Of a stretch of 64,000 nt of DNA, positions 5,662-37,030 are shown in pieces. Each line of letters opens with the position of its first letter. The stretch's first letter is position 1. The translations under genes and the position numbers were made by a program. The DNA comes from an uncultured Methanosarcinales archaeon. GTDB lineage: Archaea; Nanobdellota; Nanobdellia; Woesearchaeales; UBA583. The notes under the pieces are model-generated. The model was not told the origin of the DNA. It made no database searches and worked only from the letters and a program-made list of their open reading frames with translations. The stretch is taken from NCBI GenBank assembly GCA_964429995.1, contig CAYSDY010000002.1, forward strand, positions 110,361 to 174,360, read 5' to 3'.

Positions 5662-5701
5662 GCAAATTTACCAATTATTGTGCATTTAAGTAATTTCTTT
5701 T
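5662..5701. repeat. Copy 1 of ~40-nt imperfect direct repeat (core tttaccaatWattgtgcatt ... aatttctttt)
   Basis: Matches 36990..37030. The 20-nt core is 19/20 identical and is followed by an identical aatttctttt. Both copies sit in convergent 3-prime intergenic regions. Confidence 0.5.
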
Positions 5702-5712
5702 GCTATTAACTA

Positions 5713-6276
5713 TCAATCAGCATAAATAGTTTCTTCATCATATTTATTATATATATGATTCATATTGTTTAAACTTTTTAACTGAATTTTTTCATTATTT
5801 ATTTCAACAATACTTATTGATGTTGGATCTAATACAATATTTTTTGTTTTTTCAGGTTCGATCTCTAATGTTTTTGAAATGAAAAACTTCATAATATTCC
5901 CATGAGAAACAACAAATACTTTTTTAAGATTCATAGATATTAATTTATTCCAAAAAATATTAGCTCTTTCTAAATCTTCTTCAATTCTATTCGATCTTGT
6001 ACCTTCTTTAGGAGCACCTCCGACAATTAATCTATGTATCTCTTGAAGTTCATTTGTTATTTTAAGCTCTGGTTTATTGATATTTTGTAATTGAATTTCT
6101 TTTGCTGTTAGTTGAGCTCTTTCTAAATCAGATGATATAATTAAATCAATTTTTTCATTTTTTAAACTTTCTGCTAATAGATTTATTTGTTTTTTACCAT
6201 TCTCAGTAAGAATTGGAGGTTTATTTGGGTCTAAATTGGCTTCTGTTTCTGCATGTCTAATTAAATATATTTCCAT
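5713..6276 (-). CDS. Histidine phosphatase family protein (phosphoglycerate-mutase-like)
   Basis: N-terminal LIRHAETEAN (RHG-type catalytic His motif) and later SHGN. Last gene of the tightly packed minus-strand operon, 1 nt after the upstream stop. Confidence 0.7.
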   Translation of the reverse strand: MEIYLIRHAETEANLDPNKPPILTENGKKQINLLAESLKNEKIDLIISSDLERAQLTAKEIQLQNINKPELKITNELQEIHRLIVGGAPKEGTRSNRIEEDLERANIFWNKLISMNLKKVFVVSHGNIMKFFISKTLEIEPEKTKNIVLDPTSISIVEINNEKIQLKSLNNMNHIYNKYDEETIYAD

Positions 6277-6277
6277 T

Positions 6278-6850
6278 TTACTTAGTTAAAATATCATAAA
6301 TATTCTTCTCTAGTTCTTCTTTAACATTATCAAAAGAATGATTAGTATTCATATAATTAATATTTATTTCTAAGTTTTTAGCTATTTCTTTTGAATAATT
6401 TTGAAATTTTTCTTTATCATTTGTTCCTTGATAAATAACTATATCTTTGTTTTTCAAATGATTGATGTCAAACACTACATCTTCTAACTTCAACAAACCT
6501 AAATCTGTATTCATTATGTTAGATATAGTTGAATTTCCAATAATTATAGGAGATGCCAAAAATATATATTTATCAAAATTAATATTGGTTAATAAAGAAA
6601 TAACTCCACCAAAGCTTTTACATATTGTAAAAATATGTTTATAGTTTTTTTCTTCTTTTTTTAATTCTAAATTAATTAATGAAACAAGCTTATCAAATGT
6701 TGTATTTTCAAAATCACAAATAACCTCTATAACATCAAACTTATCTTCAAATGTTTCTATTTCAAATAATGAATCAAACTTTTTTTTAGATGCACCTGAA
6801 AAAAACACTATTAAAGATTCATTTCTATTATCAATTATTTTATTTATCAT
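6278..6850 (-). CDS. Small alpha/beta-hydrolase-like protein (putative Ser-Asp-His)
   Basis: LIVFFSGA, CKSFGG (nucleophile-elbow-like), QGTNDK and NHSF motifs. I prefer the internal ATG at 6850 (11-nt overlap with the upstream gene) over the longest ORF start at 6928. Confidence 0.45.
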   Translation of the reverse strand: MINKIIDNRNESLIVFFSGASKKKFDSLFEIETFEDKFDVIEVICDFENTTFDKLVSLINLELKKEEKNYKHIFTICKSFGGVISLLTNINFDKYIFLASPIIIGNSTISNIMNTDLGLLKLEDVVFDINHLKNKDIVIYQGTNDKEKFQNYSKEIAKNLEININYMNTNHSFDNVKEELEKNIYDILTK

Positions 6851-7880
6851 TTTTATTATACATACATAATAAGTTTCCTTTATATAATTCTCCAGTTTCC
6901 CAATATGAATAAGCTCTACAACCTCCACATAATTGAATTAATTCACAATCTTTACAATTACCTTCAAATTTCCTATTCCTCATGATATTATAATCTTTAG
7001 AATTGTTCCAAATATCAATTATAGAAGTAGTATTAGTATCACCAATTATAATATCATTTAACATAGGACAGAATGCTACATTACCATCATTATTAAAATA
7101 CATATAACTAATTCCAACACTACAACCTGCATACAAATTAAAAGTACCATAATTGTCTTTAATATTTTGTAATAATGATTTATTTGCAGCTAATGCCAAT
7201 GGATCTCCAGAGAAATAATGAATATTATATTTTTCAGAATATTTTGGAAGTTGTTCTAATATTTTAAAATATTCTTTTTTATCTACGAATAATTCTTTTT
7301 CATTAAGATTGGCATATCCCATATAAATACATCCTCTCAATCCAACTTCATCTGCACCTAAATCTTTTGCAAATTTAAAGAAATCTTCAATGTCATCTTT
7401 ATTAATATTCATTATTGTAAGTCTTAAAACAAATGGAATATTTAACAACACACAGTTTTGAGATGCTTCTACTACCTTATCATATGATAATTTATTTTGT
7501 CTAATATAATTATGAGTTTCTTTTTTATAGCTATCTAAAGAGAATTGTATTCTATCCAAACCTATTTCTTTTAATTTTTTTAATTTTTCTAAATTACAAA
7601 AATATGCATTTGAAACCAATATTATTTTCATTTTAGTATTTTTCTTAATAAATTCAATAATTTCATATAAATAAGGATATAGTAATGGCTCTCCACCCCC
7701 TAATTCTATCCATTCAACTTCATCTCCCCAGTTTGTATTTATTTGGGTTAAGATATCTATTACTTTTTCTTTTGAGATATGATTATTCTCATCAACTCTT
7801 CCTCTACAATGTAAACATCTAAAATTACATTTTCCTGTTAAATCAATATGTATTATTTTCGGTTTAAATTTTAAGTTCAT
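6840..7880 (-). CDS. Radical SAM enzyme with C-terminal SPASM/twitch-like Cys-rich domain
   Basis: CNFRCLHC (CX3CX2C) near the N-terminus. C-terminal CKDCELIQLCGGCRAYSYWE Cys cluster. The ATG at 7880 forms an ATGA overlap with the upstream stop; an alternative ATG lies at 7943. Confidence 0.8.
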   Translation of the reverse strand: MNLKFKPKIIHIDLTGKCNFRCLHCRGRVDENNHISKEKVIDILTQINTNWGDEVEWIELGGGEPLLYPYLYEIIEFIKKNTKMKIILVSNAYFCNLEKLKKLKEIGLDRIQFSLDSYKKETHNYIRQNKLSYDKVVEASQNCVLLNIPFVLRLTIMNINKDDIEDFFKFAKDLGADEVGLRGCIYMGYANLNEKELFVDKKEYFKILEQLPKYSEKYNIHYFSGDPLALAANKSLLQNIKDNYGTFNLYAGCSVGISYMYFNNDGNVAFCPMLNDIIIGDTNTTSIIDIWNNSKDYNIMRNRKFEGNCKDCELIQLCGGCRAYSYWETGELYKGNLLCMYNKNDK

Positions 7881-8626
7881 TTTTTTAATGTTGTTATTGC
7901 CCTTGGTTGTAATATATATATATTTCCATGATATATTGTCCATTCAATATCCTGTGGATATTTAAATATAGACACTATTTGTTTACCAATTTCAGCTAAT
8001 TCATAAATTTGATTTTTAGATAAAATATTTTTATTTCTACCATACATATGTCTAATATTATCAGAGTTAATTAAATATGTATCTGCAATTGTATTACCTG
8101 AAACTAATGCGTCACATGTTCCTGCTTTTACTTCTAATAACATCTCTTCTTTTTTTGACATTGGACTTTGTGTAAACAATGTTCCTGAAAAATTGCCTTT
8201 CAAAAACTCTTGTATGATTACAGCGAATGACAAATTATCAATATTTATTGATAAAGCTAAAGCATAGTCTTGTAATCTTTCTGATTTAGAAGAATTCCAG
8301 CAAGAAATGATACTTGATGCAATATTTTCCACTTTAACATTTAACAACGATTCAAATTGACCGGGGAAAGCATATTTATTTCCATCTTCTAGATTGGAAG
8401 ATGACCTCACAGCATAATTTTTTTCATGATTTACAAATGAATTAAATGTTTTATCTTGTTTTAATAATTTTTCTAATTCTTCTATATTTGGATTTTGCTG
8501 TCTAATAGTATCTGAGATTACAATTCCTTTTGGGACTAAAATATTATGTTTTATTATTTGTGATAAATTAAATGCTTTATTTCCGTATAAATTTCTATCG
8601 TGAATCCTTGCCAAACCATCTATCAT
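7877..8626 (-). CDS. PEP-utilizing enzyme N-terminal ATP-binding domain protein (PPDK_N / PEP synthase / rifampicin phosphotransferase-like), stand-alone
   Basis: YGNKAFNLSQI and YAVRSSSNLEDG correspond to the GGKAANL and AVRSSA.AED motifs of PPDK_N. ATGA overlap at both ends. Confidence 0.65.
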   Translation of the reverse strand: MIDGLARIHDRNLYGNKAFNLSQIIKHNILVPKGIVISDTIRQQNPNIEELEKLLKQDKTFNSFVNHEKNYAVRSSSNLEDGNKYAFPGQFESLLNVKVENIASSIISCWNSSKSERLQDYALALSINIDNLSFAVIIQEFLKGNFSGTLFTQSPMSKKEEMLLEVKAGTCDALVSGNTIADTYLINSDNIRHMYGRNKNILSKNQIYELAEIGKQIVSIFKYPQDIEWTIYHGNIYILQPRAITTLKK

Positions 8627-9630
8627 TTTCTTTTAATTTTTGCTTCTCCAATATTTTCATCAAAGTTAACTTTTATACTAATAATATCATCATCTTGTAT
8701 TTTTTCAGTTCCTTTATTATTATACAATTCAGTTCCAACTATACAAGGGATGTCTAATTCTCTAGAAACAACTGCTGCATGACAAGTTATTGAACCAGTA
8801 TCAGTAATTATTCCGCCTGCTTTTGTCATTAAACTTGTTAATTGAGGATCTGTTCTTGGTGCAACAAGTATATCACCTTTATTAAAATTCATATTTTTTA
8901 AATCATCTCTAATAGTTATAGGGTCAAACTTTGTTAGTATTTTAGCAATTCCTTCTATTTCCCCTTCTGATGCAGGAATTCCATTTATTATTTGTTCCAA
9001 ATTAGTTTGTTTAGAAAAAATTAAAGCAGCTTGCATATAATCTAATTTAATTTTTTGATTAAATCTGTCTACTAAATTATTTTGATAACTATTAATTGGG
9101 TCAACTAATCTTATATAGCTATTCTTATGTCCTCTAATTACAATATTATGAGTAGGATAGCTAGTTGGGTAATTAATTTCAACTAATATTGGTAATCCTT
9201 TCTCAACAAATGGATGCAAATCGTCATATTCAAAAGGCCCATTTATTATATTAAAATTTTCACTATTTGATAATTCATCTATATATGGCAAAAATTCATT
9301 CATAAAATCATCAAATAAATCATGTGGGAAAAATATAGGATTTGGTTTTCTTGGGCCCTCCATTAACATAGTTACACGATATCCATTATCAATAGCATAT
9401 TTAGCAAGTTTGGGATAACTTCCATATTCTCCAAACCCTCCTTCCCAAAATCTAATGATTCTATGTATTTCCATTTCTTTTTCTTCTGTTAATGGATATT
9501 TCTCAGGTTCAAAATAATTAAACATCATTAATGCACTTGCAGCTATGCAAGTAGTTGGAGTAGTTTGTAAATAACTATTAACAGCTAATTTTATACTTTT
9601 TCTTTGTAAATAATTATATTTATCTTCCAT
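8623..9630 (-). CDS. Fusion: papain-fold C39-like cysteine peptidase domain + PEP-utilizing enzyme mobile (phosphohistidine swivel) domain
   Basis: N-terminus has QTTPTTCIAASALMMF, then HNIVIRGH...RLVDPI (Cys-His-Asp pattern of C39 double-glycine peptidases). C-terminus has TGSITCHAAVVSRELDIPCIVGT, the phosphohistidine swivel signature. Confidence 0.55.
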   Translation of the reverse strand: MEDKYNYLQRKSIKLAVNSYLQTTPTTCIAASALMMFNYFEPEKYPLTEEKEMEIHRIIRFWEGGFGEYGSYPKLAKYAIDNGYRVTMLMEGPRKPNPIFFPHDLFDDFMNEFLPYIDELSNSENFNIINGPFEYDDLHPFVEKGLPILVEINYPTSYPTHNIVIRGHKNSYIRLVDPINSYQNNLVDRFNQKIKLDYMQAALIFSKQTNLEQIINGIPASEGEIEGIAKILTKFDPITIRDDLKNMNFNKGDILVAPRTDPQLTSLMTKAGGIITDTGSITCHAAVVSRELDIPCIVGTELYNNKGTEKIQDDDIISIKVNFDENIGEAKIKRK

Positions 9631-10549
9631 CTTCCTTTGTTAAATCTAGTAGTAAATCTTGTTTTATATCTAAAGCATAATTTGCATTATTAACTAAATG
9701 ATTATTACTTTTTGCTTTTAATTTTAAAAAAATTGATTCTCTAAATAATACATCTAAAACACCGAATTCAACTTTGTATCTTTTTTGAGGTTCTTCATAT
9801 CCTCCCCAATGTGACATTCTATGTAATAATCTAATACTTTCTTCTAATTCGGGATGTTTATTAGCAATATTTTCAATTAATGTTTGATATCTTTCAACTT
9901 TTTTATTTTGGTTAGCTTGCACTCTTTCTAATAATGAGAAATCATAGTCTAATTCAAAAGTATTTAATTCTAAATGAGCTAAGTCAATATTAGAATATGT
10001 AAATTCATTTGCAAATTCAGTAATATTTTTGTTTCCATTTCTTACTTGATAAACATAATTTACTAATTGAATTTCAAAACTACTAATTGGAGGGATAACT
10101 ATTTTCTCAGCTGTATCTAATAATTCTTTTCGAATTTTTTCTATTCTTGGCTCTAATCCTTCAGAAACATAAACCCTTAATCTACAATCATTAAATATAA
10201 ATTGTTTTAAGTAAGTCTCCCAATTGTCTTCACTACTTAGAATAACATCCCAATTTTGTGCTAATTGAAATAAAGAATTATCATGTTGATACCAACTAGA
10301 AATATATTTATTAAAAAAGTCTAAATCTGAACATTCATCTCTTTCTTTTCTAATTTGTTTCATAGAATTTGCAAATAAATTTCCAGAGTGTTCAGATTTT
10401 AGTATTAAATTTCTTAACTCAATTAAATCCATGCCTAAATCTTTCAAACTAGAATTTACAACATTATTTATTATCTCACGATTATAGCTTTGTAACCAAA
10501 ATAAATAATCCCTTTCAAATTGAAAGGGCACAGTTAATTTTTGAATCAT
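9620..10549 (-). CDS. Hypothetical protein, co-operonic with the peptide-modification genes
   Basis: 309-aa ORF with no motif I recognise. Its ATG overlaps the stop of the upstream 37-aa ORF (ATGA). Confidence 0.45.
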   Translation of the reverse strand: MIQKLTVPFQFERDYLFWLQSYNREIINNVVNSSLKDLGMDLIELRNLILKSEHSGNLFANSMKQIRKERDECSDLDFFNKYISSWYQHDNSLFQLAQNWDVILSSEDNWETYLKQFIFNDCRLRVYVSEGLEPRIEKIRKELLDTAEKIVIPPISSFEIQLVNYVYQVRNGNKNITEFANEFTYSNIDLAHLELNTFELDYDFSLLERVQANQNKKVERYQTLIENIANKHPELEESIRLLHRMSHWGGYEEPQKRYKVEFGVLDVLFRESIFLKLKAKSNNHLVNNANYALDIKQDLLLDLTKEDGR

Positions 10550-10659: not shown

Positions 10660-10820
10660 TTTGAAGTATAACAAGATTTACTTGTTATGTATTTATGATT
10701 TTTATTTTTATAAATGTTACGATATTACTCGAAGTTAATAACATTAAAATTTATAAACTTTTGTTTATGTCACTACTAATTACTAAAACTTAAATAGTTT
10801 GAACTTTTAGAATATTATAG
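10660..10820. promoter_or_regulatory. Divergent promoter region (TATA-like boxes on both strands) between the peptide operon and integrase
   Basis: AT-rich 160-nt spacer with tttataaa-type boxes at about 10702..10713 (reading minus) and 10748..10757. Confidence 0.3.
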
Positions 10821-11948
10821 ATGCAGTTTATAGAATCATACAAATTTAAGCATAAAGATTGGAATCAAACAAAAATTAGAGTTTTGATTCACATGGTAAG
10901 AAATTTTGAACCTGAAAATCATAGACTATTTGCTCAAATGCTTTCAATGTTAGAACCTGAAAGCTCAAAGAAAATATTTGAAGAAATAAAAAATATGGGA
11001 GAGTATTTCAAAAGAATTATTGATATTGCAAATGTCGAAGATGAGAAGAATAATTTAGTTGAACAAATTTTAGCTTCAAAAAATGATTCAACAATTAATT
11101 CCACTGAAAGTTATGATGTATTGAGTATGTATAATAAATATAAAGAATCATTTTCTGAGTGGATGTTTACAAATAGAACTAAAAGGTATGCTACAAGTAC
11201 TGTAAATGAATGTTCTAAATTGTTTGCATGTGATGTTAAGAATATTTTAGATATTAGAAGAGAGATTGTAAATAATAAAAGCTTACCTCCTAGAACTAAT
11301 AATGCTTTTAGAGCTTTTTTGAATTTTGTAGAAGAAAAGACTCCAATTAGTCCGATTTTACTAAATGATTTAAGAGTATATATTAAAGGTGGTGTTGGAG
11401 AACATGTTGACAAGAGAGTTCCAACTAAGGAAGAAATTTTAAGATCAATTCAAACAATTAAAAGAGATTATTCCAATAACGATTTAATGCTTTATTATTT
11501 TTTATTTGAGTCAGGATGTAGATTTGAGGAACTTAAGAAAGTTATCTTAGAATTTGATTTTGATAAGTTTGTTGAAGGAGATGATTTTTCTTACTATAAA
11601 TTGTTTTGGAGAAGAGGAAAGAAGAACTCATTTATATTATTCTTTAGACCTGAAACTATAAAACATATTGTAGATAATTTAAAGATTTATCAAGATAATA
11701 CTTATTTAGAAAGGTTTAAAGATTGGCTTCAAGATAATCAAGATATTGAAAGTTCAAAGTATGTAAGAAAATTTACATTTACAGAAATGATTCATACTAG
11801 TGAGATTGATATAACTATTGCAAATCTGTTTCAGGGAAGAACAACAAAAGGAGACATTGGTGAGAAACATTACTTGGAATATGAAAGATTACTAGTTAAA
11901 TGGTATCCAAAATTTTTACCATTTGCAAAAGAAATTGAAGGTGAGTAA
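10821..11948 (+). CDS. int: Tyrosine recombinase / integrase
   Basis: C-terminal catalytic region has ESGCRFEEL (R) and RKFTFTEMIHTSE ... GRTTKGDIGEKHYLEY (H..R...Y). Paralogous to the integrase at 37283. Confidence 0.75.
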   Translation: MQFIESYKFKHKDWNQTKIRVLIHMVRNFEPENHRLFAQMLSMLEPESSKKIFEEIKNMGEYFKRIIDIANVEDEKNNLVEQILASKNDSTINSTESYDVLSMYNKYKESFSEWMFTNRTKRYATSTVNECSKLFACDVKNILDIRREIVNNKSLPPRTNNAFRAFLNFVEEKTPISPILLNDLRVYIKGGVGEHVDKRVPTKEEILRSIQTIKRDYSNNDLMLYYFLFESGCRFEELKKVILEFDFDKFVEGDDFSYYKLFWRRGKKNSFILFFRPETIKHIVDNLKIYQDNTYLERFKDWLQDNQDIESSKYVRKFTFTEMIHTSEIDITIANLFQGRTTKGDIGEKHYLEYERLLVKWYPKFLPFAKEIEGE

Positions 11949-12005
11949 AAGTCTTTAGAGACAACTTTATAAATAATCTTGTTATGAATATGTTAGGATA
12001 CAAAA

Positions 12006-13031
12006 ATGAAAGATTTAACAATCAAAGATGAAATTACTGAATTTATTATATATAAAGCACCTAATGAAGAAATTAAGGTAGAAGTATTTTTACATAATGA
12101 AACAGTCTGGTTAACGCAAAAAAGAATGTCGGAACTTTTTGATGTTGGAATCCCTGCAATTTCTAAACATTTAGATAATATTTATTCTGAAGGAGAATTA
12201 GATAAAGATTCAACTATTTCCATTTTGGAAACAGTTCAAAAGGAAGGAAATAGAGAAGTTAAAAGAAAACTCGAGTATTATAATTTAGATGTAATTATTG
12301 CAGTTGGTTATAGAGTTAATTCATATAGAGCAACTCAATTTAGAATTTGGGCAACAAAAATACTCAAAGAATACATTATTAAAGGATTTGCAATGGATGA
12401 TAAGAGATTAAAAAATCCTAATAATGTTTTTGGTAAGGATTATTTTGATGAACAATTAGAAAGAATACGAGATATAAGAAGTAGTGAGAGAAGATTCTAC
12501 CAAAAAATAACTGATATCTATTCTCAGTGTAGTGCTGATTATGATTCTAAATCTAAAATTACTGAAGATTTTTTTGCAATAGTTCAAAATAAACTACATT
12601 ATGCAATCTCTGGAAAAACAGCTGCAGAAATTATATATTCTAGAGCAAATAGTAAAGAACAAAATATGGGACTTACTTCTTGGAAAAATTCTCCTAAAGG
12701 AAAGATTAGAAAAACTGATATTAGTATTGCAAAGAATTACCTTAACAATGAAGAATTGGATTCATTAAATAGAATTGTATCAATGTATTTAGATTATGCT
12801 GAAATGCAAGCTAAAAAGCAAAATATAATGTATATGAAAGATTGGGTTAATAAATTAAATGCTTTTTTAAAATTTAATGAAAGGGAAATCTTACAAGATT
12901 TGGGCAAAGTTACTTCTGAGATTGCTAAAGAGTTTGCAGAAACAGAATTTGAAAAATATCGTATCATTCAGGATAGATTATTTAAGAGTGATTTTGATAA
13001 GTTAATTGAAAAAAGTAGAGATATAAAATAA
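12006..13031 (+). CDS. RhuM family virulence/cell-filamentation-like protein
   Basis: ETVWLTQKRMSELFDV, YYNLDVIIAVGYRVNS, ATQFRIWATKILKEYIIKGFAMDD are the characteristic RhuM blocks. RhuM genes are commonly RM-associated. Confidence 0.75.
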   Translation: MKDLTIKDEITEFIIYKAPNEEIKVEVFLHNETVWLTQKRMSELFDVGIPAISKHLDNIYSEGELDKDSTISILETVQKEGNREVKRKLEYYNLDVIIAVGYRVNSYRATQFRIWATKILKEYIIKGFAMDDKRLKNPNNVFGKDYFDEQLERIRDIRSSERRFYQKITDIYSQCSADYDSKSKITEDFFAIVQNKLHYAISGKTAAEIIYSRANSKEQNMGLTSWKNSPKGKIRKTDISIAKNYLNNEELDSLNRIVSMYLDYAEMQAKKQNIMYMKDWVNKLNAFLKFNEREILQDLGKVTSEIAKEFAETEFEKYRIIQDRLFKSDFDKLIEKSRDIK

Positions 13032-13953
13032 ATATTTTCAACATTGAATTTATGTTACCATGCTATATTGTAATAAGTTTTAGATAATTTATTTTTTTAT
13101 AAATTGTAATTTTTTATTTTTTAGTTGTTAATTAATGAATTTTGTTTGTTTGTGAATGTTTTTAGTGATTTTTTTTATTTTGCTAATTTTTTTTATCTCT
13201 ATGGAAGTTAATCGCCCCAAAAAGATTAGTTTTTATGTGGGTGTATTTTTGATGTTTTTTGAGGTGGGTTTGTTAATACATATATATGAAATTTTTGGAT
13301 TTTTGTGACAAAAGGAAAAGTTCATTTTTCTATTGATTTTTTAATTAAAAATTCAATTTGAAAAAATCTAAGTTTTTATTTGTTTTTTCAAGAAGTTATT
13401 AGGCATTAGTAATGTTAATTGCTATTTTTGGTGATTTTTTTTGAATTTATAGTGGCGTCTAGAAATAAGAGATAATTTTAAAATATATAAAATCGCCACT
13501 ATATGCCAAAAATGATATTTACTAGTATTTTTGAGTTTCTTAAAAATACTATTTAAATAGCATTTTTACTATATATGAATTTGAGTTTGGAAGCTTTCAG
13601 TTGTTTTCCCACCAAAATAGTTTTTTTTATGAGTTGGTTTTTTCTGTTTTTTGGATGTTTGCTCTGAGTATACATACTAAATCTGAAAATCGTGTTTTTA
13701 AATTATGGTTTTTTGGGATTGAAATAAAATTTTGTGAATAAAACAAAAGTTTGAAATTAGCTTCAAATTGAAGAGTTTTTGGTATTTTATGATAAGTTGT
13801 AGGTCAATTGAGAGTTTGTATTGAATTTTTAGGTTTGAAGTGGGTTAATTTGGGAATTGAAGTTAATAAAAAACTATTTATTTGCTGTCTTTAGTTATAA
13901 TAAGTAATAAAGTATTTAAATAAACTTAATTAAAAATTATTATATAATAAAAA

Positions 13954-16500
13954 ATGGCTAAAAAAAAAGTAAAACTTATTCCAGTCAAAGAAAAAACTAG
14001 TACTGATGATTTTAAAGATCAAGTTAAACAATATACTCATCAAGAATCTAAAAGGATTAATAACCCTCCTATTGGTTTAGTTACAGCAGAAACTGATAGT
14101 TTGAATGGAGTTAAAAAATATGAATATGATCCACATTTAAATCCTCAATTAGTTTGGGCTGGAAAGAAAGAAGGAATTAGTTTTGAAGTTGATACCGTTT
14201 CTCTTCATGTTCATGAAAGAATAGATCCATTATCTATTATTGAGAATGTGAAGAAAAGTGATGGTGAGATACAATTTTCTCTTTTCCATTATTTTGAAAA
14301 TGATAACAGACCTATAAGAGAAGCGATTGAATTTTATAAACACGAACAAAACTGGTCAAATAGATTAATTGCAGGAGATTCTTTGATTGTAATGAATTCT
14401 CTTCTTGAAAAAGAAGGAATGACTAGAAAAGTTCAGATGATTTACATTGATCCACCTTATGGAATTACTTATGGTTCTAATTTTCAACCATTTGTTAATA
14501 AACGAGATGTGAAAGATAGAAAAGATGAAGATTTAACTCAAGAGCCAGAAATGATTAAAGCATTTAGAGACACTTGGGAATTAGGGATTCATTCGTATTT
14601 AAGTTATTTAAGAGATAGATTAAAACTCTCAAAAGATTTATTGACTGATAGCGGAAGTTGTTTTGTTCAAATTTCTGATGAAAACTTACATCATGTAAGA
14701 GAAATAATGGATGAAGTTTTTGGTCCTGAGAATTTTGTTAGTCTGATTGCTTTTAAAAAAGGATTAGGATATTCTGAGAAATTTATTCCTTCTGTTTATG
14801 ATTATTTAATTGTTTATGCAAAGGATAAGACTCAGCAAAAATATAGAAAACCTCTTGTTTTTGATGACGAAGAGAATTTTATTACTTTTGGTTGGATTGA
14901 ATTACCTAATGGTGAAAGAAGAAGAGTTTCTAAAAAAAACGATTTTGTTAATGATAAATTTGTAACTAAAGGGAGATTATTTCAAACATCAACTTTAGTT
15001 TCTAAAGGTTCTGCTAAAGAATCACAAGAATATGAAATGGAAGGAACAAGATATTTCCCTTCGACAGGAACACATTGGAAAACAAAATGTCCTGAAGGAT
15101 TAAATAATTTGAAAAGTAAAAATCGTTTAATTGGCGTGAATAAAACTCTTGCTTTTGTAAGATTTAAAGAGGATTTCCCATATAAAATACCAACTAATGT
15201 TTGGGATGATACATTACAAAGTACATTTTCCTCTGATAAAGTCTATGTTGTACAAACTAATACTAAAGTTATTCAAAGATGTATTCTTATGACAACCGAC
15301 CCAGGAGATTTAGTATTAGATCCTACTTGTGGAAGTGGAACTACTGCATTTGTTGCAGAACAATGGGGAAGAAGATGGATAACTTGCGATACATCGAGAG
15401 TTGCTACAACACTAGCAAAACAAAGATTAATGACATCTATTTTTGATTATTATGAATTAGCTCATCAAAATGAAGGGATTAAATCTGGTTTCAAATACAA
15501 AACTGTTCCACATATTACTTTAGGTTCGATTGCAAATAACGAGCCAACAAATGAAGAAACTTTATACGACCAACCTTTTATTGACAAAAAGCGTAGAAGA
15601 GTTACTGGTCCTTTTACCTTAGAAGCTGTTCCATCTCAGAGAGTAACAAGTTTTGAAGATGTTGAACAAGCAATACAAGAACCTGATATGACAATTGCTC
15701 GTTCTGGAGAAACAATGAAACAGAACGATTGGATTGATGAAATGCTTGCAACAGGAATAAGAGGAAAAGCAGGACAAAAAATTGAATTTGTAAGAATAGA
15801 AACTCTTGGTGGAACAAGATGGGTTCATGCAGAAGCAGAGACTAAAGACGGACAAAAAGTAGTTATTTCTTTTGGTCCCCAATATGCACCATTAGAACAA
15901 AGGCAAGTAGAATTGGCAATTGAAGAATCTCAATCATTAGTTCCAAAACCAAAAATGATTATTTTTGCGTCATTCCAATTTGATCCTGAAGCAGCCAAAG
16001 ATATAGATGAGTTAAAATGGCCTGGAGTCAATATTCTAAAAGTTCAGATGAATACTGATCTCTTAACAAACGACTTAAAGAAAAAGCGTTCAAGTAGTGA
16101 ATCCTTCTGGTTAATGGGACAACCAGATATAGAAGTTAAAAAACAAAACGATAAATATGTTGTAGAAGTAAATGGATTTGATTATTATAACACAAAAACT
16201 GGTGAAATCGAATCTGGAGATTCTTCAAAAATTGCAATGTGGGAATTGGATACTGATTATGATGGAAGAAGTCTTTATCCAAGACAAGTGTTTTTTCCAA
16301 TGGCTGGAAGTGGAGAAGGTTGGGATAAACTCGCAAAAAACATTAAAGCAGTTATTGATGAAGAACTAATTGAACAATATAAAGGAAATATTTCAATCCC
16401 TTTCAAACTTGGTCCAAATAAAAGAATAGCTGTAAAAATTATTGATGATAGGGGAATCGAATCTTTAAAGATTGTGGAGATTAAAGATGGAAACAACTAA
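13954..16500 (+). CDS. mod: Type III restriction-modification system methyltransferase (Mod), N6-adenine/N4-cytosine class
   Basis: DPPYGITYG (motif IV) precedes LDPTCGSGTTAFVAEQWGRRWITCD (motif I), the beta-class order. 848 aa, with a long C-terminal extension. Confidence 0.85.
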   Translation: MAKKKVKLIPVKEKTSTDDFKDQVKQYTHQESKRINNPPIGLVTAETDSLNGVKKYEYDPHLNPQLVWAGKKEGISFEVDTVSLHVHERIDPLSIIENVKKSDGEIQFSLFHYFENDNRPIREAIEFYKHEQNWSNRLIAGDSLIVMNSLLEKEGMTRKVQMIYIDPPYGITYGSNFQPFVNKRDVKDRKDEDLTQEPEMIKAFRDTWELGIHSYLSYLRDRLKLSKDLLTDSGSCFVQISDENLHHVREIMDEVFGPENFVSLIAFKKGLGYSEKFIPSVYDYLIVYAKDKTQQKYRKPLVFDDEENFITFGWIELPNGERRRVSKKNDFVNDKFVTKGRLFQTSTLVSKGSAKESQEYEMEGTRYFPSTGTHWKTKCPEGLNNLKSKNRLIGVNKTLAFVRFKEDFPYKIPTNVWDDTLQSTFSSDKVYVVQTNTKVIQRCILMTTDPGDLVLDPTCGSGTTAFVAEQWGRRWITCDTSRVATTLAKQRLMTSIFDYYELAHQNEGIKSGFKYKTVPHITLGSIANNEPTNEETLYDQPFIDKKRRRVTGPFTLEAVPSQRVTSFEDVEQAIQEPDMTIARSGETMKQNDWIDEMLATGIRGKAGQKIEFVRIETLGGTRWVHAEAETKDGQKVVISFGPQYAPLEQRQVELAIEESQSLVPKPKMIIFASFQFDPEAAKDIDELKWPGVNILKVQMNTDLLTNDLKKKRSSSESFWLMGQPDIEVKKQNDKYVVEVNGFDYYNTKTGEIESGDSSKIAMWELDTDYDGRSLYPRQVFFPMAGSGEGWDKLAKNIKAVIDEELIEQYKGNISIPFKLGPNKRIAVKIIDDRGIESLKIVEIKDGNN

Positions 16501-19288
16501 TCATTTAATCATAAACAGCCCTTATGAAAAACCACAAAAACATCTAAAGTATTTAAGGGAAATTAGAAAATTTGAATTGGTTGAAGGAAGAAGACCTGCG
16601 GGCTATGTTGTTGCTTCAGAACATTCTAAGAGTTTTGATGATCCCGGTATTTTTGTTGAGTTAGAACTCGCAAATAGAATAAGAGAAAGAGTTCAAAAAT
16701 GGAAAGACAATAATTATCCCGGAATTTCATCAATAACTAAAGATTTACTTGAACATTGGAAAAATCAAGATAGAAATTTAAGGTTCTTTTTTTGTCAGAT
16801 TGAAGCAATTGAAACTTTAATTTGGTTAATCGAAGCTCCTGAAAGTGAGAAACAAGGAATTGAAATTCCGTTTGATGGGGGAGATATTCAAAGAATATGC
16901 TCCAAGATGGCAACTGGAACAGGAAAAACAATAGTTATGGCTATGTTAATTGCATACAACATAATAAATAAAGTTACTTATTCAAAAGATACACGATTCT
17001 CAAAAAATGTTCTTGTTGTTGCTCCAGGATTAACTGTAAAAAGTAGACTTCAAGTTTTACTTCCTGATGCTGATGATAATTATTATGAAGCATTTGATAT
17101 TGTACCGCAAGATTTGTATGATAAACTAAGACAAGGAAGAGTCAAGATAATTAACTGGCATTCTCTTGATTGGGATACTCAGGATAGAATTAACAAAAAA
17201 ATTGAGAATGGAACTCTTAGAACTGTTGATAAAAGAAAGAAAATTGAAATTAGTGATGAAGCATATATAAAAAATGTATTGGAAGAGTTGTCTGATGCAA
17301 AAAAAATTTTGGTTATTAATGACGAAGCACATCATGCTTGGCGAATTAATCCTGAAGCAAAAGGAAAATATCAACGAATTGGTGAAGATAAAGACAGTGC
17401 TGAAGAAGCAACAATTTGGATAAGTGGATTGGATAAAATAAATAAATCTAGAGGAATTATCCAATGTCATGATTTTTCTGCAACTCCTTTTTATCCTTCT
17501 GGTAAAAAAGTAGGGGAAGATCAGCTTTTTACATGGATTGTTAGTGATTTTGGACTAAATGATGCAATAGAGTCGGGACTAGTAAAAACTCCTAGAGTGG
17601 TTATTCGTGATGATGGAAAACTCGACAAAAAAATGAAATCTCGTTTTTACCATATTTATATGGATCCAACTGTTAAAAGTGATTTAAACAGAAGTGTTGA
17701 AGCAGAAGTTCCTCTTCCTGATTTAATTGTACAAGCTTATTATCATTTAGGAAAAGATTGGTTAGAAACACTAAAACTATGGAATAGTTCAAATCCTCCG
17801 TCTGAAGTTCCTCCAGTTATGATTACAGTTTGTAATAGAACCGAAACTGCTGCAAGAGTTGAAAATGCTTTTTTGAAAGGTAAAATAAAGATTGATGAAT
17901 TAAAAGATTCAAGTAAAACCTTGAGAATTGATTCAAAAATTTTATCTGAAGCTGAAACTAAAAAAAACACCACTGAGATTAATTCAGAAAATAAGCTATC
18001 TAAAGAAAAACAAGCAGAATTATTAAGACAGCAAGTTGATACTGTTGGAAAAAAAGGAATGCCTGGAGAACAAATCCAAAATGTAATTTCTGTTGGGATG
18101 TTATCTGAAGGTTGGGATGCAAAAACAGTAACTCATATCATGGGTCTGAGAGCATTTTCAAGTCAGTTATTATGTGAGCAAGTAGTCGGAAGAGGATTAA
18201 GAAGAGTCTCTTATGAAGTTGATGAAGAAACAGGACTATACAAACCCGAATATGTAAATATTTTCGGCGTTCCTTTTACATTCTTACCACACGAGGGCGG
18301 AGAAGATACTCCTCCGGAGCCACCTAAACCAAGAACTAGAATTTTTGTTGATGATATCAAAAAAGAACATGAAATAAAATGGCCCAACATAATTAGAATT
18401 AATCATGTATATTCTTCACAACTTCATTTAGATATGAAAAATGTTAAGAGAATAGAATTAAGACCAGAAGATACTCCTTTCAGAAGTGAACTTGCTCCTT
18501 TTTTGGAAGGAAAACCTGATAGCACCAAACTAAGTGAGATAAATCTGAGCGATGAAAAAATTGAAGAAATGTTAAAAGTCTTAAGGAAACAAAGACTTAT
18601 TTTTGAAATTGCAAGAGATATTTTTGATCAAGTAAAACCCAATTGGTCTGGCAAAAGGGAACATTTACTTATTCAAATAGTAAAAATTGTAGAAGATTTC
18701 ATAAATTCTAACAGGTTGATAATTAAAGGAGAAATCTATAAAGAGGATTTGAAAAAAAGATTATTAATTCTTCTTAATATGAATAAAATAGTACAACATT
18801 TATTTAATGCAATTAGATTTGAAAATACTGAAGAATTAGTTCCTATATATGATAAGGAAAAACCTATAAAATCAACTGCAAATATGATGACTTGGTACAC
18901 GACAAAACCTTGTGAACTTAATAGAAAATCACATATAAGTCACACAATATTTGATAGTACTTGGGAAGCAACAGAAGCATTTGAATTAGACAGAAATGAA
19001 AATATTGAGTCTTGGGCAAAAAATGATCATCTGAATTTTTATGTTAATTATGTATTTAATGGAGTTATTCATAAATATTATCCTGATTTCTTGATAAAAT
19101 TAAGAAATGGTAAAATGTTAGTATTAGAAGTAAAAGGATTAGATAGTCAACAGAATAAAACAAAAAGAGAATATTTCAAAGAATGGATAGATGCAGTAAA
19201 TAATGATGGTCGTTTTGGAGTTTGGGAATTTGATGTTTCTTTTAGACCTGCAGACATAAAAGACATTTTACAAAAACATTCTAAATAA
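16487..19288 (+). CDS. res: Type III restriction enzyme Res subunit (SF2 helicase + PD-(D/E)xK endonuclease)
   Basis: MATGTGKT (motif I), LVINDEAHHAW (DEAH), SEGWDAKTV...QVVGRGLRR (motif VI), C-terminal PDFLIKL...LVLEVKG. ATG at 16487 overlaps Mod by 14 nt. The ORF track's 16472 start is TTG. Confidence 0.85.
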   Translation: METTNHLIINSPYEKPQKHLKYLREIRKFELVEGRRPAGYVVASEHSKSFDDPGIFVELELANRIRERVQKWKDNNYPGISSITKDLLEHWKNQDRNLRFFFCQIEAIETLIWLIEAPESEKQGIEIPFDGGDIQRICSKMATGTGKTIVMAMLIAYNIINKVTYSKDTRFSKNVLVVAPGLTVKSRLQVLLPDADDNYYEAFDIVPQDLYDKLRQGRVKIINWHSLDWDTQDRINKKIENGTLRTVDKRKKIEISDEAYIKNVLEELSDAKKILVINDEAHHAWRINPEAKGKYQRIGEDKDSAEEATIWISGLDKINKSRGIIQCHDFSATPFYPSGKKVGEDQLFTWIVSDFGLNDAIESGLVKTPRVVIRDDGKLDKKMKSRFYHIYMDPTVKSDLNRSVEAEVPLPDLIVQAYYHLGKDWLETLKLWNSSNPPSEVPPVMITVCNRTETAARVENAFLKGKIKIDELKDSSKTLRIDSKILSEAETKKNTTEINSENKLSKEKQAELLRQQVDTVGKKGMPGEQIQNVISVGMLSEGWDAKTVTHIMGLRAFSSQLLCEQVVGRGLRRVSYEVDEETGLYKPEYVNIFGVPFTFLPHEGGEDTPPEPPKPRTRIFVDDIKKEHEIKWPNIIRINHVYSSQLHLDMKNVKRIELRPEDTPFRSELAPFLEGKPDSTKLSEINLSDEKIEEMLKVLRKQRLIFEIARDIFDQVKPNWSGKREHLLIQIVKIVEDFINSNRLIIKGEIYKEDLKKRLLILLNMNKIVQHLFNAIRFENTEELVPIYDKEKPIKSTANMMTWYTTKPCELNRKSHISHTIFDSTWEATEAFELDRNENIESWAKNDHLNFYVNYVFNGVIHKYYPDFLIKLRNGKMLVLEVKGLDSQQNKTKREYFKEWIDAVNNDGRFGVWEFDVSFRPADIKDILQKHSK

Positions 19289-29243: not shown

Positions 29244-29244
29244 G

Positions 29245-30693: not shown

Positions 30694-30694
30694 A

Positions 30695-34664: not shown

Positions 34665-35805
34665 GAAAATAATTAATACTAGTAAGAATAAATATTTGGA
34701 CTTTTTAAAAAGTATTATATTAAAAGATGAGAATTTTTTCCCATTAAGATTAAGAATAAAATTGCCACATCCAAAAAATAATTATTTAGAATTTTATGAG
34801 ACAATGAAGGAAATAAATTCCAAATCAAAAGAATCAATAAAATATGGTTATTTAATTTCTTTTAATCCTGGAATAAAAACTAGAGATGCAGGGACTCAAG
34901 ATATTCCTAATTCAGTTTTTTTTGAATCTGAAAAAGATTATTTATCATTTTTAAATAAAGAACAGGAAGTTAATCAATTTAAAAAAGATTTTAAGTTAAT
35001 TTTAACAAAGTATCCTGAATTGAAATCATGGATTGAAAGATTTCCAATTAAAATAATTAATTCAGCAGGATTATGGCATGATATATTGAAGGTCTGTGAT
35101 TATTTTTATTTGAACCCTAAACCTAATTTATATATTAGGGAATTGCCAATACAAGTTCATACTAAATTTATTGAAAATAATGAAGCAATAATTAGAGAAT
35201 TGTTAGACATATTAATTAGTAATGAAATTAACTCTTTAGAATTTGATTTTAAAAAAAGATTTAACTTAAAGTATGATCAATTTTTAATCAGAGTTAAAGT
35301 TTTGGATAAGAACATACTTTTGAAAAATAATTTGAATAACTCTTTTTTAGATTTTAGTTTACCACTAGATTTATTTGAGAAATTAAATTTAAATGTTGAT
35401 AAAGTATTTATTGTTGAAAATAAGATGAATTTTTTAACTTTCCCAAATATTGAAAATTCAATAATCATATCAGGTTCAGGGAATGGAGTCAATATTTTAA
35501 AGAATTCTTCTTGGCTTAATGAAAAACAAATTTATTATTGGGGTGATATAGATTCTCATGGTTTTGCAATTCTTTCAAGTTTTAAAAAATATTTCTCAAA
35601 TATAAAATCATTATTTATGGATTTTAAAACATATGATACATTTAAAGAGTTTGAAGTAAAAGGAGAAAAAACAGTTCAAGAAACTTTTTCTAATTTAACT
35701 GATGAAGAATTAAAAGTATTTAATTATGTTCATAGTAATAATTTAAGATTAGAGCAAGAAAGAATTTCTCAAGAATATATTATTAATAATTTGAAAAATG
35801 AATAA
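34651..35805 (+). CDS. jetD: Wadjet JetD-like protein with C-terminal Toprim domain (MksG-like)
   Basis: 384 aa. VFIVENKMNF (Toprim Glu) and YYWGDIDSHGFAI (DxD) lie in the C-terminal half. Overlaps jetC by 14 nt. Confidence 0.6.
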   Translation: MKISEKIINTSKNKYLDFLKSIILKDENFFPLRLRIKLPHPKNNYLEFYETMKEINSKSKESIKYGYLISFNPGIKTRDAGTQDIPNSVFFESEKDYLSFLNKEQEVNQFKKDFKLILTKYPELKSWIERFPIKIINSAGLWHDILKVCDYFYLNPKPNLYIRELPIQVHTKFIENNEAIIRELLDILISNEINSLEFDFKKRFNLKYDQFLIRVKVLDKNILLKNNLNNSFLDFSLPLDLFEKLNLNVDKVFIVENKMNFLTFPNIENSIIISGSGNGVNILKNSSWLNEKQIYYWGDIDSHGFAILSSFKKYFSNIKSLFMDFKTYDTFKEFEVKGEKTVQETFSNLTDEELKVFNYVHSNNLRLEQERISQEYIINNLKNE

Positions 35806-36958
35806 ACAACAACTATACCTAAAAAAGATTGAAAATGATGTTAATGAGAAAATATATGATTTGTTAATTCAACATCTAAAAGATGTTCATAAAGTACTTC
35901 CTAGAACTGATGATAATAAAGATTATTTAAGAGAGTTAAATAAACATCTATTCAAAGCATTAGAAGATTTAAAACAAACAAATAGATTTAACTACTTACA
36001 AAACTATAGACACTCAATTCTTATTATAAATACTATTCTTAGCTATAAACCTGATGAGAAACATCTAAAAGAAGTTAAGCTTTCAATATTAAATAGATTT
36101 TCCTCAGATATTATTTACGATAAAAAAGAGAAGATTCCATTAAAGTCTCAAATGACTGAACTTAGAATTACTTATGATACTAGCTATTTAATCTATCTTT
36201 TAGAAAAAGTTTTCATACCAAAAGAGATGTGGGATAAGGCAATGTATTGTTTAATTGCAATAGAATTAGTAGAACCAGATCATAACGATATTGATAAATT
36301 TAAAGAAATAATCACAAAACATCTAAAAAAAGAAGAATTAAAATATAAAGAATTTGAAGAACCTAAAGACTATATTATTCTTTTAGATACAAATATTATT
36401 TTAAATAAAGTATTATATGATGTTGGAGAATATAAAATATCTCATAACAAATTAGAAGAGTATAACTCTTTGATGGAAAAATGGGGAAATAACAATAAGT
36501 TTGTAATAACTAACTCTATAAAAGAAGAGTTAGACAAACAAATTAAATTTTCAATTGATACAGTAAACGATGTTTGTTCTAAGTTTAAACATTTTAATAA
36601 AAATGAAATTATTACAACACTTGAAAAGAGGTTTAATAATTTAATAAAAAAATATGCAATTGCAATAGAAGATAAACAATATGATTTAACAAATATTGAA
36701 AAATTCTACTCAAATTACTTAGGAAACTTATATGAAATAACTTTAGATAAAATCGAAAACAAGAAGTTATCTAAAAAATTAAAAAAACTCTCAGATAGGG
36801 AAGGTTTGCTTCCAGAAATAGGAGATCTGAAACTTTTAGCAGATGCAATTGAACTTAAGAAATCTAATTCAAAGGTAGCAATACTTTCAAATGATAAAGA
36901 CTTGTATTTATTTAATGAACAATTAGAAAAAGAATTTGGAATAAGAATTTACAAATAG
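35798..36958 (+). CDS. PIN-domain nuclease with long N-terminal helical extension, translationally coupled to jetD
   Basis: C-terminal domain has YIILLDTNIIL, KEELD, LLADAIE and LSNDKDL, the four acidic positions of PIN domains. Its ATG overlaps the jetD stop by 8 nt. Confidence 0.55.
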   Translation: MNKQQLYLKKIENDVNEKIYDLLIQHLKDVHKVLPRTDDNKDYLRELNKHLFKALEDLKQTNRFNYLQNYRHSILIINTILSYKPDEKHLKEVKLSILNRFSSDIIYDKKEKIPLKSQMTELRITYDTSYLIYLLEKVFIPKEMWDKAMYCLIAIELVEPDHNDIDKFKEIITKHLKKEELKYKEFEEPKDYIILLDTNIILNKVLYDVGEYKISHNKLEEYNSLMEKWGNNNKFVITNSIKEELDKQIKFSIDTVNDVCSKFKHFNKNEIITTLEKRFNNLIKKYAIAIEDKQYDLTNIEKFYSNYLGNLYEITLDKIENKKLSKKLKKLSDREGLLPEIGDLKLLADAIELKKSNSKVAILSNDKDLYLFNEQLEKEFGIRIYK

Positions 36959-36989
36959 GATTCAAAACTCTAACAAATAACAACCTAAA

Positions 36990-37030
36990 GCACTTTTACC
37001 AATAATTGTGCATTCTAAAAATTTCTTTTT
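36990..37030. repeat. Copy 2 of ~40-nt imperfect direct repeat (see 5662..5701)
   Basis: gcacttttaccaataattgtgcattctaaaaatttctttttt here versus gcaaatttaccaattattgtgcatttaagtaatttcttttg there. Confidence 0.5.

What the first reader, a model, noticed from the sequence alone, without database searches (positions are those of the whole stretch)
5662..37030. ~40-nt imperfect direct repeats at 5662..5701 and 36990..37030 span 31 kb
Both copies sit in convergent 3-prime intergenic regions: after the NTase/HEPN pair, and after the Wadjet-PIN train. They share tttaccaatWattgtgcatt (19/20) plus an identical aatttctttt. Together they delimit a segment that includes both the RiPP-like operon and the defense island.

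They could be att/terminal repeats of a larger or older composite element whose integrase lies just outside. They could instead be a shared terminator or protein-binding motif. The core caatWattg is palindromic.
Basis: seen in the sequence. Interest (0 to 1): 0.55.

Follow-up and report, generated by a model that had tools for sequence, protein, structure and literature searches.

The report
Leftover gene ends, not attachment sites
The two short repeats are real, but one is part of a small conserved gene next to an integrase and the other is a decayed scrap of a second copy, most likely left by past reshuffling of a defence-gene island in a tiny (DPANN) archaeon; they are not the ends of a mobile element and not a terminator signal.

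Summary
The repeat exists: 5667-5701 matches 36995-37029 at 30/35 bases, and the 20-mer occurs twice against 0.04 expected. It is half of a larger pattern. A second, colinear repeat (4815-4868 versus 36912-36965, 83%) lies beside it.

On the right, the two blocks are the 3' ends of two tail-to-tail genes whose stop codons are 3 nt apart. One is a 386-aa defence-island gene on the + strand. The other is a 60-aa ORF on the - strand, just downstream of an SSV-type integrase that abuts tRNA-Ser. The 60-aa ORF is a real gene (dN/dS 0.08-0.15).

On the left, only fragments remain. They are split by a nucleotidyltransferase cassette and flanked by unrelated DNA.

Relatives carry the 60-aa ORF, mostly with the integrase and tRNA-Ser, next to five different neighbours. 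Every breakpoint falls at the ORF's stop codon, never inside the repeat. A related complete genome holds one exact copy of the 20-mer. Scans of genomes, metagenomes and viral contigs found otherwise only chance hits.

Verdict: these are vestiges of a second, related gene junction from island turnover. They are not att sites and not a generic terminator. The case is ordinary and of low interest. The evolutionary path is inferred, not shown.

The parts
4781..4812 (.). GC-rich hairpin (AAAAATCCCCGTCAT-TC-ATGGCGGGGATTTTT) directly abutting the left edge of relic A. It lies in the divergent region between the start of the 1144-aa gene (4657, - strand) and the NTase gene.
   Evidence: (I21), 76, 78, 79: unique in the window and seen only in same-species loci
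4815..4868 (+). Relic A-left: the last 15 codons plus stop (NEQIEKEFEIRIYR*) of a 386-aa-family gene, with no gene body upstream.
   Evidence: 83% to 36907-36965; 94%, 48/51, to the copy in L049/L050; its variant residues occur in other family members
4916..5548 (+). Nucleotidyltransferase gene (210 aa) lying between relic A and relic B.
   Evidence: PF01909, PF18765; widespread DPANN family
5532..5648 (+). 38-aa ORF downstream of the NTase.
   Evidence: called as a gene in metagenome contigs; no Pfam hit at E<=1
5660..5711 (-). Relic B-left (core 5667-5701): an internal fragment of a 60-aa-ORF paralog (QKKLLKCTIIGK), flanked on both sides by non-homologous DNA.
   Evidence: One search shows the tail 5625-5666 is not significantly similar to the ORF tails (p 0.3-0.6).
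5713..6276 (-). Histidine-phosphatase gene abutting relic B-left. In a paralogous or related locus (L043) the same gene is followed by an HD gene and an intact 63-aa copy of the small ORF.
   Evidence: PF00300; 90% nt identity to L043 8714-9283, ending at window 5707
10821..11948 (+). IntA, a second SSV-type integrase (375 aa). It forms the conserved left end of the island together with the RhuM gene (12006-13031) and the 13.2-13.6 kb region.
35798..36958 (+). 386-aa defence-island-associated gene, last gene of the Wadjet train. Its 3' end, 36907-36965, is repeat A-right.
36962..37144 (-). 60-aa conserved small ORF downstream of IntB. Repeat B-right (36995-37029) is its codons 39-50 (KKKFLECTIIGK). 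Its stop codon is 3 nt from the stop of the 386-aa gene.
   Evidence: (dN/dS 0.08-0.15)
37283..38281 (-). IntB, SSV-type (PF16795) integrase. Its ORF reads through the tRNA-Ser gene.
38196..38280 (-). tRNA-Ser(GCT), the gene abutted and overlapped by the IntB ORF and the likely attachment target of the island (the attachment role is inferred).
38309..38352 (-). 44-nt duplicate of the 5' half of tRNA-Ser (91%), 25 nt upstream of the intact gene. This is the only att-like repeat found at the island end.
   Evidence: (D8)

Best explanation
The repeat is not a signal in its own right.

The right copy is ordinary coding sequence. It is codons 39-50 of a conserved 60-aa gene that lies downstream of an SSV-type integrase and tRNA-Ser. 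That gene meets the 386-aa gene tail to tail, with the two stop codons 3 nt apart.

The left copy, together with the newly found block A-left, is a fragmentary vestige of a second, related copy of the same tail-to-tail junction. Its two gene bodies were lost and a nucleotidyltransferase cassette now sits between the scraps.

Such vestiges are expected where related archaeal integrated elements or defence islands pile up and recombine at one tRNA locus.

Shown: the coding nature of the right copy, the colinear A+B structure, and the position of breakpoints in relatives. Inferred: the order of events (tandem accretion or homeologous recombination, then deletions), and that the left copy has no present function.
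For: 1. A and B are colinear in both places. They are 29 nt apart on the right and 798 nt apart on the left, where the NTase and the 38-aa ORF sit between them.

2. B-right lies in a real gene. Four homolog clusters are 81-90% identical in protein. Differences concentrate at third codon positions, and dN/dS is 0.146 against L049 and 0.084 against L043. The W position of the 20-mer is a synonymous ATT/ATA isoleucine codon (read from the sequence).

3. A is the conserved C-terminus of the 386-aa family. Three of A-left's differences from A-right are synonymous, the stop codon is kept, and its variant residues I, E and R occur in other family members. A-left is 94% identical to the copy in L049/L050 but 83% identical to the window's own A-right. 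The two copies therefore descend from different gene lineages, not from one duplicated core. The numbers are small.

4. The small ORF is found beside five different neighbours:
- the window (386-aa gene);
- L049/L050 (a 67-aa fragment of the 386-aa gene);
- L007 (unrelated genes);
- L053/L054 (DNA like window 13215-13623, with 23 kb of cargo absent);
- L043 (a paralogous or related locus, without an integrase).
In all of them homology runs through B and its tail and stops at 36953-36962, the stop codon of the small ORF.

5. The gene next to B-left (His_Phos_1) is followed in L043 by an HD gene and an intact small ORF. B-left therefore fits a deletion of about 850 nt from such an arrangement.

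6. The motif is rare. There is one exact copy in the related complete genome CP060218.1, and only chance hits in the other genomes, in metagenomes and in viral contigs.

7. There is no significant RNA fold and no palindrome enrichment.

8. The literature reports that related archaeal elements integrated at one locus exchange modules by homologous recombination (PMC8371274).
Against: - Each left relic is short (54 nt and 35-52 nt) and bounded by unrelated DNA on both sides. Several closely spaced breakpoints must be assumed.
- The tail of B-left is not significantly similar to the ORF tail.
- Protein-level significance of the relics is marginal (tblastn E=0.047 and 0.019 within the window).
- An isolated identity block flanked by unrelated DNA is also what an att core looks like.
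- The source genome as a whole could not be scanned, so its copy number outside the window is unknown.
- No empty-site relative was found for the left end.
- The A-left 94% versus 83% contrast rests on 3 versus about 9 mismatches.
Confidence: 0.65

Rival explanations
1. Homology-driven (Campbell-type) insertion. A circular element carried its own copy of the 386-aa/small-ORF junction. It recombined with the chromosomal junction, possibly helped by a PF16795 integrase with low-specificity recombination activity. The two A+B copies would then truly bracket the inserted 31 kb, although they are not the integrase's att site.
For: - The A+B blocks are in direct orientation and colinear at both ends.
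- A-left resembles the copy of the syntenic relative L049 (94%) more than A-right does, as expected for a host-type versus an element-type copy.
- An integrase (IntA) lies inside the bracketed segment.
- Some archaeal integrases of this Pfam family catalyse recombination with the outcome of homologous recombination (PMC8371274).
Against: - In relatives with little cargo, L049 links the IntA-end/RhuM-start junction, and L053/L054 link the 13.2-13.6 kb region, directly to the small ORF-IntB end. IntA...small ORF therefore looks like one ancestral island, not an incoming element.
- The model still needs later deletions (small-ORF body, HD gene, 386-aa body) and the NTase insertion.
- No empty site or circular junction was seen.
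Confidence: 0.13
2. True attL/attR core of a 31-kb integrative composite element, recombined site-specifically by IntB (just outside) or IntA (inside).
For: - The repeats are direct and flank integrase-bearing island DNA.
- They form an isolated 35-nt identity block with unrelated flanks.
- IntB ends 250 nt from the right copy.
Against: - Identity is only 86%, and the longest exact run is 10 nt.
- Relatives break at the stop codon of the small ORF, not at the repeat.
- IntB is outside the bracketed segment. IntA is 5.1 kb from the left copy, with an operon in between.
- PF16795 integrases have their att site inside the int ORF and match tRNA genes. Here that role is filled by tRNA-Ser and its 44-nt duplicate.
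- The second colinear block A is unexplained by an att core.
Confidence: 0.07
3. A functional cis motif kept in both places: an oligo-T archaeal terminator for the converging transcripts, or a protein-binding site.
For: - Both copies lie where transcripts converge.
- Both contain a T-rich run, TTTCTTTT(TT), on the + strand. Block A has TTCTTTTTCT on the - strand.
- Fragments of the 386-aa 3' end persist next to the small ORF in two independent cases, window-left and L049.
Against: - There are only two copies in 64 kb and one exact copy in a related 1.54-Mb genome.
- There is no significant structure (z between -1.5 and +1.1).
- The palindrome is at chance frequency.
- The conserved part is explained by codons of a selected protein.
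- T-runs are common in a genome of about 25% GC.
Confidence: 0.08
4. Chance similarity in an AT-rich genome.
For: The genome is about 25% GC and low in complexity, so many weak repeats appear.
Against: The 20-mer is expected 0.04 times and 0 of 100 shuffles reach the observed count. blastn gives E=3e-6 for B and E=1e-12 for the colinear block A.
Confidence: 0.01

Closest known systems
attL/attR direct repeats of tRNA-integrating archaeal elements with SSV-type ('suicidal', Pfam PF16795) integrases (review PMC8371274)
   Same: There are direct repeats in island DNA. A PF16795 integrase abuts and reads through a tRNA gene (tRNA-Ser) at the island end. A 44-nt tRNA-derived repeat is present at 38240-38283 and 38309-38352.
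   Different: The repeat under study is neither tRNA-derived nor inside the integrase gene. It is 86% identical, is coding sequence of another gene, and is not where relatives break. No distal tRNA-Ser fragment or int(N) piece was found in the window.
Gene remnants left by module exchange between related integrated elements (homologous recombination between elements integrated at one locus; cited in PMC8371274 after Redder et al. 2009 and Gehring et al. 2017)
   Same: Two paralogous PF16795 integrases (32% identical) sit in inverted orientation in one island. The ends are conserved and the middle is variable. Short homeologous fragments of element genes are left behind.
   Different: Those cases are in Sulfolobales and Thermococcales, with recognisable whole elements. 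Here the host is a DPANN (Woesearchaeota-like) archaeon, the cargo is defence systems, and the second element survives only as roughly 50-nt scraps.
Defence-island hotspots with conserved flanks and exchangeable cargo (e.g. E. coli pan-genome study, PMC10121019)
   Same: The anchor is constant (small ORF-IntB-tRNA-Ser), and the adjacent defence cargo differs in each relative: Wadjet, a UvrD-family helicase with PD-(D/E)XK nuclease genes, type III-like restriction-modification genes, toxin-antitoxin-like genes, or nothing.
   Different: This is an archaeal host with an SSV-type integrase. The cargo boundary sits exactly at the stop codon of a 60-aa ORF of unknown function.

Membership tests
att sites of a tyrosine-recombinase integrative element | Both ends share an identical (or nearly identical) crossover core | tested here: not met
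   30/35 identical, longest exact run 10 nt
att sites of a tyrosine-recombinase integrative element | Presence/absence or cargo polymorphism in relatives breaks at the repeat | tested here: not met
   Among five neighbour arrangements, homology runs through B and ends at 36953-36962, the stop codon of the small ORF
att sites of a tyrosine-recombinase integrative element | The integrase gene lies inside the element, next to one att site | tested here: not met
   IntB is outside the bracketed segment. IntA is inside but 5.1 kb from the left copy
att sites of a tyrosine-recombinase integrative element | An excised circle or empty site is detectable in the population | not testable with these tools
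   Raw reads are not available. Same-species contigs from several samples all show the window arrangement
SSV-type (suicidal, PF16795) integrase att site | The att site lies within the integrase ORF and matches a tRNA gene | tested here: not met
   B lies in a different ORF and is not tRNA-like. The tRNA-Ser overlap with the IntB ORF and the 44-nt duplicate fill that role
Generic terminator or repeated regulatory motif | It recurs at many gene 3' ends in the genome | tested here: not met
   2 copies in 64 kb. 1 exact copy in the related complete genome CP060218.1, and chance-level single hits elsewhere. The source genome itself could not be scanned
Generic terminator or repeated regulatory motif | Stable hairpin, or an oligo-T tract used as an archaeal terminator | tested here: inconclusive
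   No significant fold (z -1.5 to +1.1). T-runs are present, but their use cannot be tested without transcript-end data
Gene remnant (pseudogene fragment) | The intact copy is part of a protein-coding gene under purifying selection | tested here: met
   dN/dS 0.08-0.15, with third-position excess. Homologs.
Gene remnant (pseudogene fragment) | The fragment lacks the rest of the gene, and its homology is confined to and colinear with the coding parts | tested here: met
   A-left and B-left are colinear with the right-hand junction. No other part of either gene occurs elsewhere in the window
Gene remnant (pseudogene fragment) | The fragment is recognisable at protein level | tested here: inconclusive
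   tblastn E=0.047 (B-left) and 0.019 (A-left) within the window. The tail of B-left is not similar
tRNA-linked genomic island with variable cargo | An integrase next to a tRNA gene, conserved ends and a variable middle in relatives | tested here: met
tRNA-linked genomic island with variable cargo | A distal direct repeat of the tRNA fragment marks the far end | tested here: not met
   No second tRNA-Ser fragment in 1-38150. No tRNA-like GC-rich patch in or near IntA

The most novel reading that the evidence does not exclude
The 3-nt spacer between the stop codons of the small ORF and its converging neighbour may be a defined docking point. There, defence cassettes would be swapped in a family of DPANN islands anchored by small ORF-IntB-tRNA-Ser. 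PF16795 integrases able to recombine homologous DNA might catalyse the swaps. The A/B scraps at 4.8-5.7 kb would then be scars of such swaps, and the NTase cassette sitting between them would be an example of an insertion at that point.
Probability: 0.12. Interest if true: 0.5.

Novelty: new member of a known kind. Interest (0 to 1): 0.2.

Why it matters
The practical gain is that a 31-kb 'element' is not mis-annotated from a pair of repeats that are really gene fragments.

The useful by-product is a clearer map of the locus. The island runs from IntA (about 10.8 kb) to tRNA-Ser (about 38.35 kb). Its ends are conserved and its defence cargo (including Wadjet) is exchangeable in Woesearchaeota-like DPANN archaea.

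If the junction at the small ORF's stop codon proved to be a specific cassette-exchange point, it would be a handle on how defence genes move in archaea with very small genomes. The present evidence does not require that reading.

Tried and rejected
- **Stop codon in register.** I first thought B-left kept the ORF's C-terminal tail and stop codon in register. An alignment-versus-shuffle test gave p=0.3-0.6, so only about 35-52 nt is homologous.
- **Hairpin as terminator.** I first took the hairpin at 4781-4812 for the terminator of the 1144-aa gene. That gene's start, not its end, faces the hairpin.
- **Viral contigs.** Scans with the 386-aa protein, IntB and the 20-mer found no relatives.
- **Metagenome scan.** The 20-mer gave 14 hits, none related. 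L032 is a chance match in a TatD-like gene.
- **Small ORF function.** No Pfam family at E<=0.1. The AlphaFold model has pLDDT 56, so no fold search was run.
- **HEPN label.** The 38-aa ORF has no Pfam hit. The closest NTase homolog contigs end 23 nt after the gene, so no full-length partner was seen.
- **PIN label.** The window's 386-aa protein has no Pfam or PADLOC hit. PF16289 is precomputed for 4 homologs, and PIN_4 matches 1 of 18 at E=0.0075.
- **Distal att site.** No distal tRNA-Ser fragment and no tRNA-like patch in IntA.
- **Split-tRNA idea.** For the duplicated 5' half, no complementary partner of GTCGCCGCCGG exists in the window.
- **Palindrome and structure.** Both negative.
Full report
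**Observation.**
TTTACCAAT[T/A]ATTGTGCATT lies at 5667-5686 and 36995-37014, each followed a few bases later by an identical AATTTCTTTT. blastn aligns 5667-5701 with 36995-37029 at 30/35, E=3e-6. The 20-mer with up to 3 mismatches is found 3 times against 0.04 expected, and 0 of 100 shuffles reach that count. The repeat is therefore real. The palindromic core CAATWATTG is at chance frequency (3 found, 2.3 expected). Neither strand of either copy folds better than shuffles (z from -1.5 to +1.1).

A second repeat, A, lies colinear with the first, B. It spans 4810-4868 and 36907-36965 at 49/59, E=1e-12. On the right, A and B are 29 nt apart. On the left they are 798 nt apart, and the gap holds a nucleotidyltransferase gene (4916-5548; PF01909 and PF18765) and a 38-aa ORF (5532-5648).

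A-right is the last 16 codons, the stop and 7 nt beyond of the 386-aa gene that ends the Wadjet JetABCD train (35798-36958). B-right lies inside a - strand ORF (36962-37144) that metagenome gene callers report as 60 aa. The two stop codons, 36956-58 and 36962-64, are 3 nt apart. The right-hand 'repeat' is thus simply the two 3' ends of a tail-to-tail gene pair.

**Context.**
The window comes from a DPANN archaeon of about 25% GC. Homologs are named Woesearchaeota or Nanoarchaeia, and the flanking genes include aS21 and a wyosine-formation radical-SAM enzyme.

Immediately beyond the small ORF lies IntB (37283-38281), an SSV-type integrase (PF16795, E=3e-26). Its ORF reads through tRNA-Ser(GCT) at 38196-38280. 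A 44-nt duplicate of the tRNA's 5' half lies 25 nt upstream.

A paralogous integrase, IntA (10821-11948; 32% identical over 272 aa), points the other way. Between the two integrases lie:
- a RhuM gene;
- a type III-like restriction-modification pair;
- RmuC;
- a GHKL-type ATPase;
- a gene set with a UvrD-family helicase and PD-(D/E)XK nucleases;
- Wadjet.

**The small ORF is a gene.**
Four homolog clusters are 81-90% identical in protein. DNA comparisons show a third-position excess, for example 6/7/19 differences by codon position against L049. dN/dS is 0.146 against L049 and 0.084 against L043. Function is unknown: there is no Pfam hit and the structure model is of low confidence (pLDDT 56).

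**Relatives.**
The genome scan for the 20-mer returned 10 single hits. Nine are unrelated.

- **L007.** This is the complete Woesearchaeota genome CP060218.1 (1.54 Mb). It has one exact copy of the 20-mer. L007 4346-5735 is 96% identical to window 36953-38344, covering the small ORF, IntB, tRNA-Ser and the 5'-half duplicate. Both flanks are unrelated.
- **L053.** It shares 96% identity with 36962-38115 and then continues into DNA like window 13215-13623. The 23 kb of cargo is absent.
- **L054.** It shows the same arrangement at 85%.
- **L049/L050.** These are syntenic at 78-82% from cyclophilin and aS21 (L049; Taw1 lies just beyond the aligned stretch) through tRNA-Ser, Int and the small ORF. 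They then hold only a 67-aa C-terminal fragment of the 386-aa gene, two small genes and a RhuM start fragment that matches window 11970-12072 at 90%.
- **L043.** It comes from the same samples as the window. It carries a 63-aa paralog after His_Phos_1 and an HD gene, with no integrase.

That makes five different neighbours. In every case homology passes through B and the ORF's tail and ends at 36953-36962. The variable-cargo boundary is the stop codon of the small ORF, not the repeat. The island with conserved ends runs from IntA/RhuM/13.4 kb to the small ORF/IntB/tRNA-Ser. The left copy of the repeat lies about 5 kb outside it.

**The left copy.**
True homology of A-left starts at 4815, directly after a unique GC-rich hairpin at 4781-4812. 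A-left encodes NEQIEKEFEIRIYR*. Compared with A-right it has three synonymous changes and keeps the stop codon, and its substitutions I, E and R are seen in other family members. It is 94% (48/51) identical to the copy in L049/L050, but 83% identical to A-right. The numbers are small, but they suggest a separate gene lineage.

B-left is homologous over only about 35-52 nt (5660-5711). The sequence where the ORF tail should be is not significantly similar (p=0.3-0.6).

B-left abuts the stop codon of His_Phos_1 (5713-6276). That gene is 90% identical in DNA to the L043 gene, and the homology ends at 5707. Relative to the L043 arrangement (His_Phos_1-HD-small ORF), about 850 nt is missing. No other fragment of either gene exists in the window. 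Same-species contigs from several samples are identical here.

**Interpretation.**
The best reading is that the left blocks are scraps of a second, homeologous copy of the 386-aa/small-ORF junction. They would have been left by accretion and recombination of related islands or elements, followed by deletions and insertion of the NTase cassette. The right block is ordinary coding sequence.

This is the known behaviour of related archaeal integrated elements. PF16795 integrases are the 'suicidal' class with the att site inside the int gene, and related elements integrated at one locus exchange modules by homologous recombination (PMC8371274). The sequence of events is inferred, not shown.

A Campbell-type, homology-driven insertion that really is bracketed by the repeats cannot be excluded (about 0.13). 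A true att core is unlikely (about 0.07). A functional terminator or binding motif is unlikely (about 0.08).

**Limits.**
- The source genome could not be scanned as a whole.
- Exact-pattern scans miss diverged copies. The L049 version has one mismatch and was not retrieved.
- No empty-site relative for the left end was found.
- Raw reads could not be examined.

**Verdict.**
These are gene-end remnants in a recombining, tRNA-linked defence island of a DPANN archaeon. Interest is 0.2.

Noticed in passing
window 38284-38352 (also L007 5675-5744; absent in L049): A 44-nt duplicate of the 5' half of tRNA-Ser(GCT), ending in the anticodon loop. It is followed by a GC-rich 25-nt spacer (CCGGCGGCGAC...) and then the intact tRNA. 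The outermost acceptor bases differ between the window (GCCAAGG) and L007 (GCTGAGG). It could be an att scar, or, given the DPANN host, a split-tRNA-like half gene. No complementary partner exists in the window.
   Followed up: partly
window 37283-38326 (- strand): The IntB ORF reads straight through the tRNA-Ser gene, and the called start ATG overlaps the tRNA's 5' end. IntB lacks the roughly 100-aa N-terminal part present in IntA. It looks like the int(C) half of a 'suicidal' SSV-type integrase, but no int(N) piece or distal att site was found in the window.
   Followed up: partly
window 40414-40549 and 45644-45778: A direct repeat of about 130 nt (about 80-85% identical) flanks the 963-aa, 233-aa and CCA-adding enzyme genes. 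It contains an inverted repeat, ATTCCTTTGAA...TTCAAAGGAAT. It may be a small mobile or regulatory element.
   Followed up: no
window 4781-4812: A GC-rich hairpin flanked by A5 and T5 (AAAAATCCCCGTCAT TC ATGGCGGGGATTTTT) in a 25%-GC genome. It is unique in the window and in all fetched loci except same-species ones. It sits in a divergent promoter region, directly against the relic of the 386-aa gene end.
   Followed up: partly
window 13031-13954: A 920-nt G/T-rich stretch with essentially no ORF (only a 50-aa reading frame at 13156-13308), between the RhuM gene and the methylase gene. Parts of it (13215-13448, 13577-13623) are conserved next to the small ORF in relatives that lack the 23-kb cargo (L053, L054). 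No Rfam match.
   Followed up: partly
window 13954-19288: A type III-like restriction-modification pair (N6_N4 methylase and ResIII helicase-nuclease) has 31-33% GC, against 21-26% for the rest of the island. This suggests a separate foreign origin.
   Followed up: no
window 5713-10549 (- strand); L043 1594-9945: The RiPP-like operon (a protein with C39-like peptidase and PEP-utilizer domains, a PPDK_N-like protein, a radical-SAM/SPASM enzyme, a 216-aa protein and His_Phos_1) ends with a histidine phosphatase. Its 3' end is about 98% identical to a second copy (L043) that closes a different operon of nucleotide-metabolism genes (NDK/HD, a phosphodiesterase-family protein, NUDIX and two dCTP-deaminase-family (DCD) proteins). 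Logan unitigs break inside this shared 3' end.
   Followed up: partly
L023 1273-6980: A 90%-identical homolog of the 386-aa gene sits in another DPANN contig downstream of a Cas12a (Cpf1)-Cas4-Cas1-Cas2 locus, a zeta-toxin gene and an NTase pair. This shows that the 386-aa gene travels among varied defence islands.
   Followed up: no
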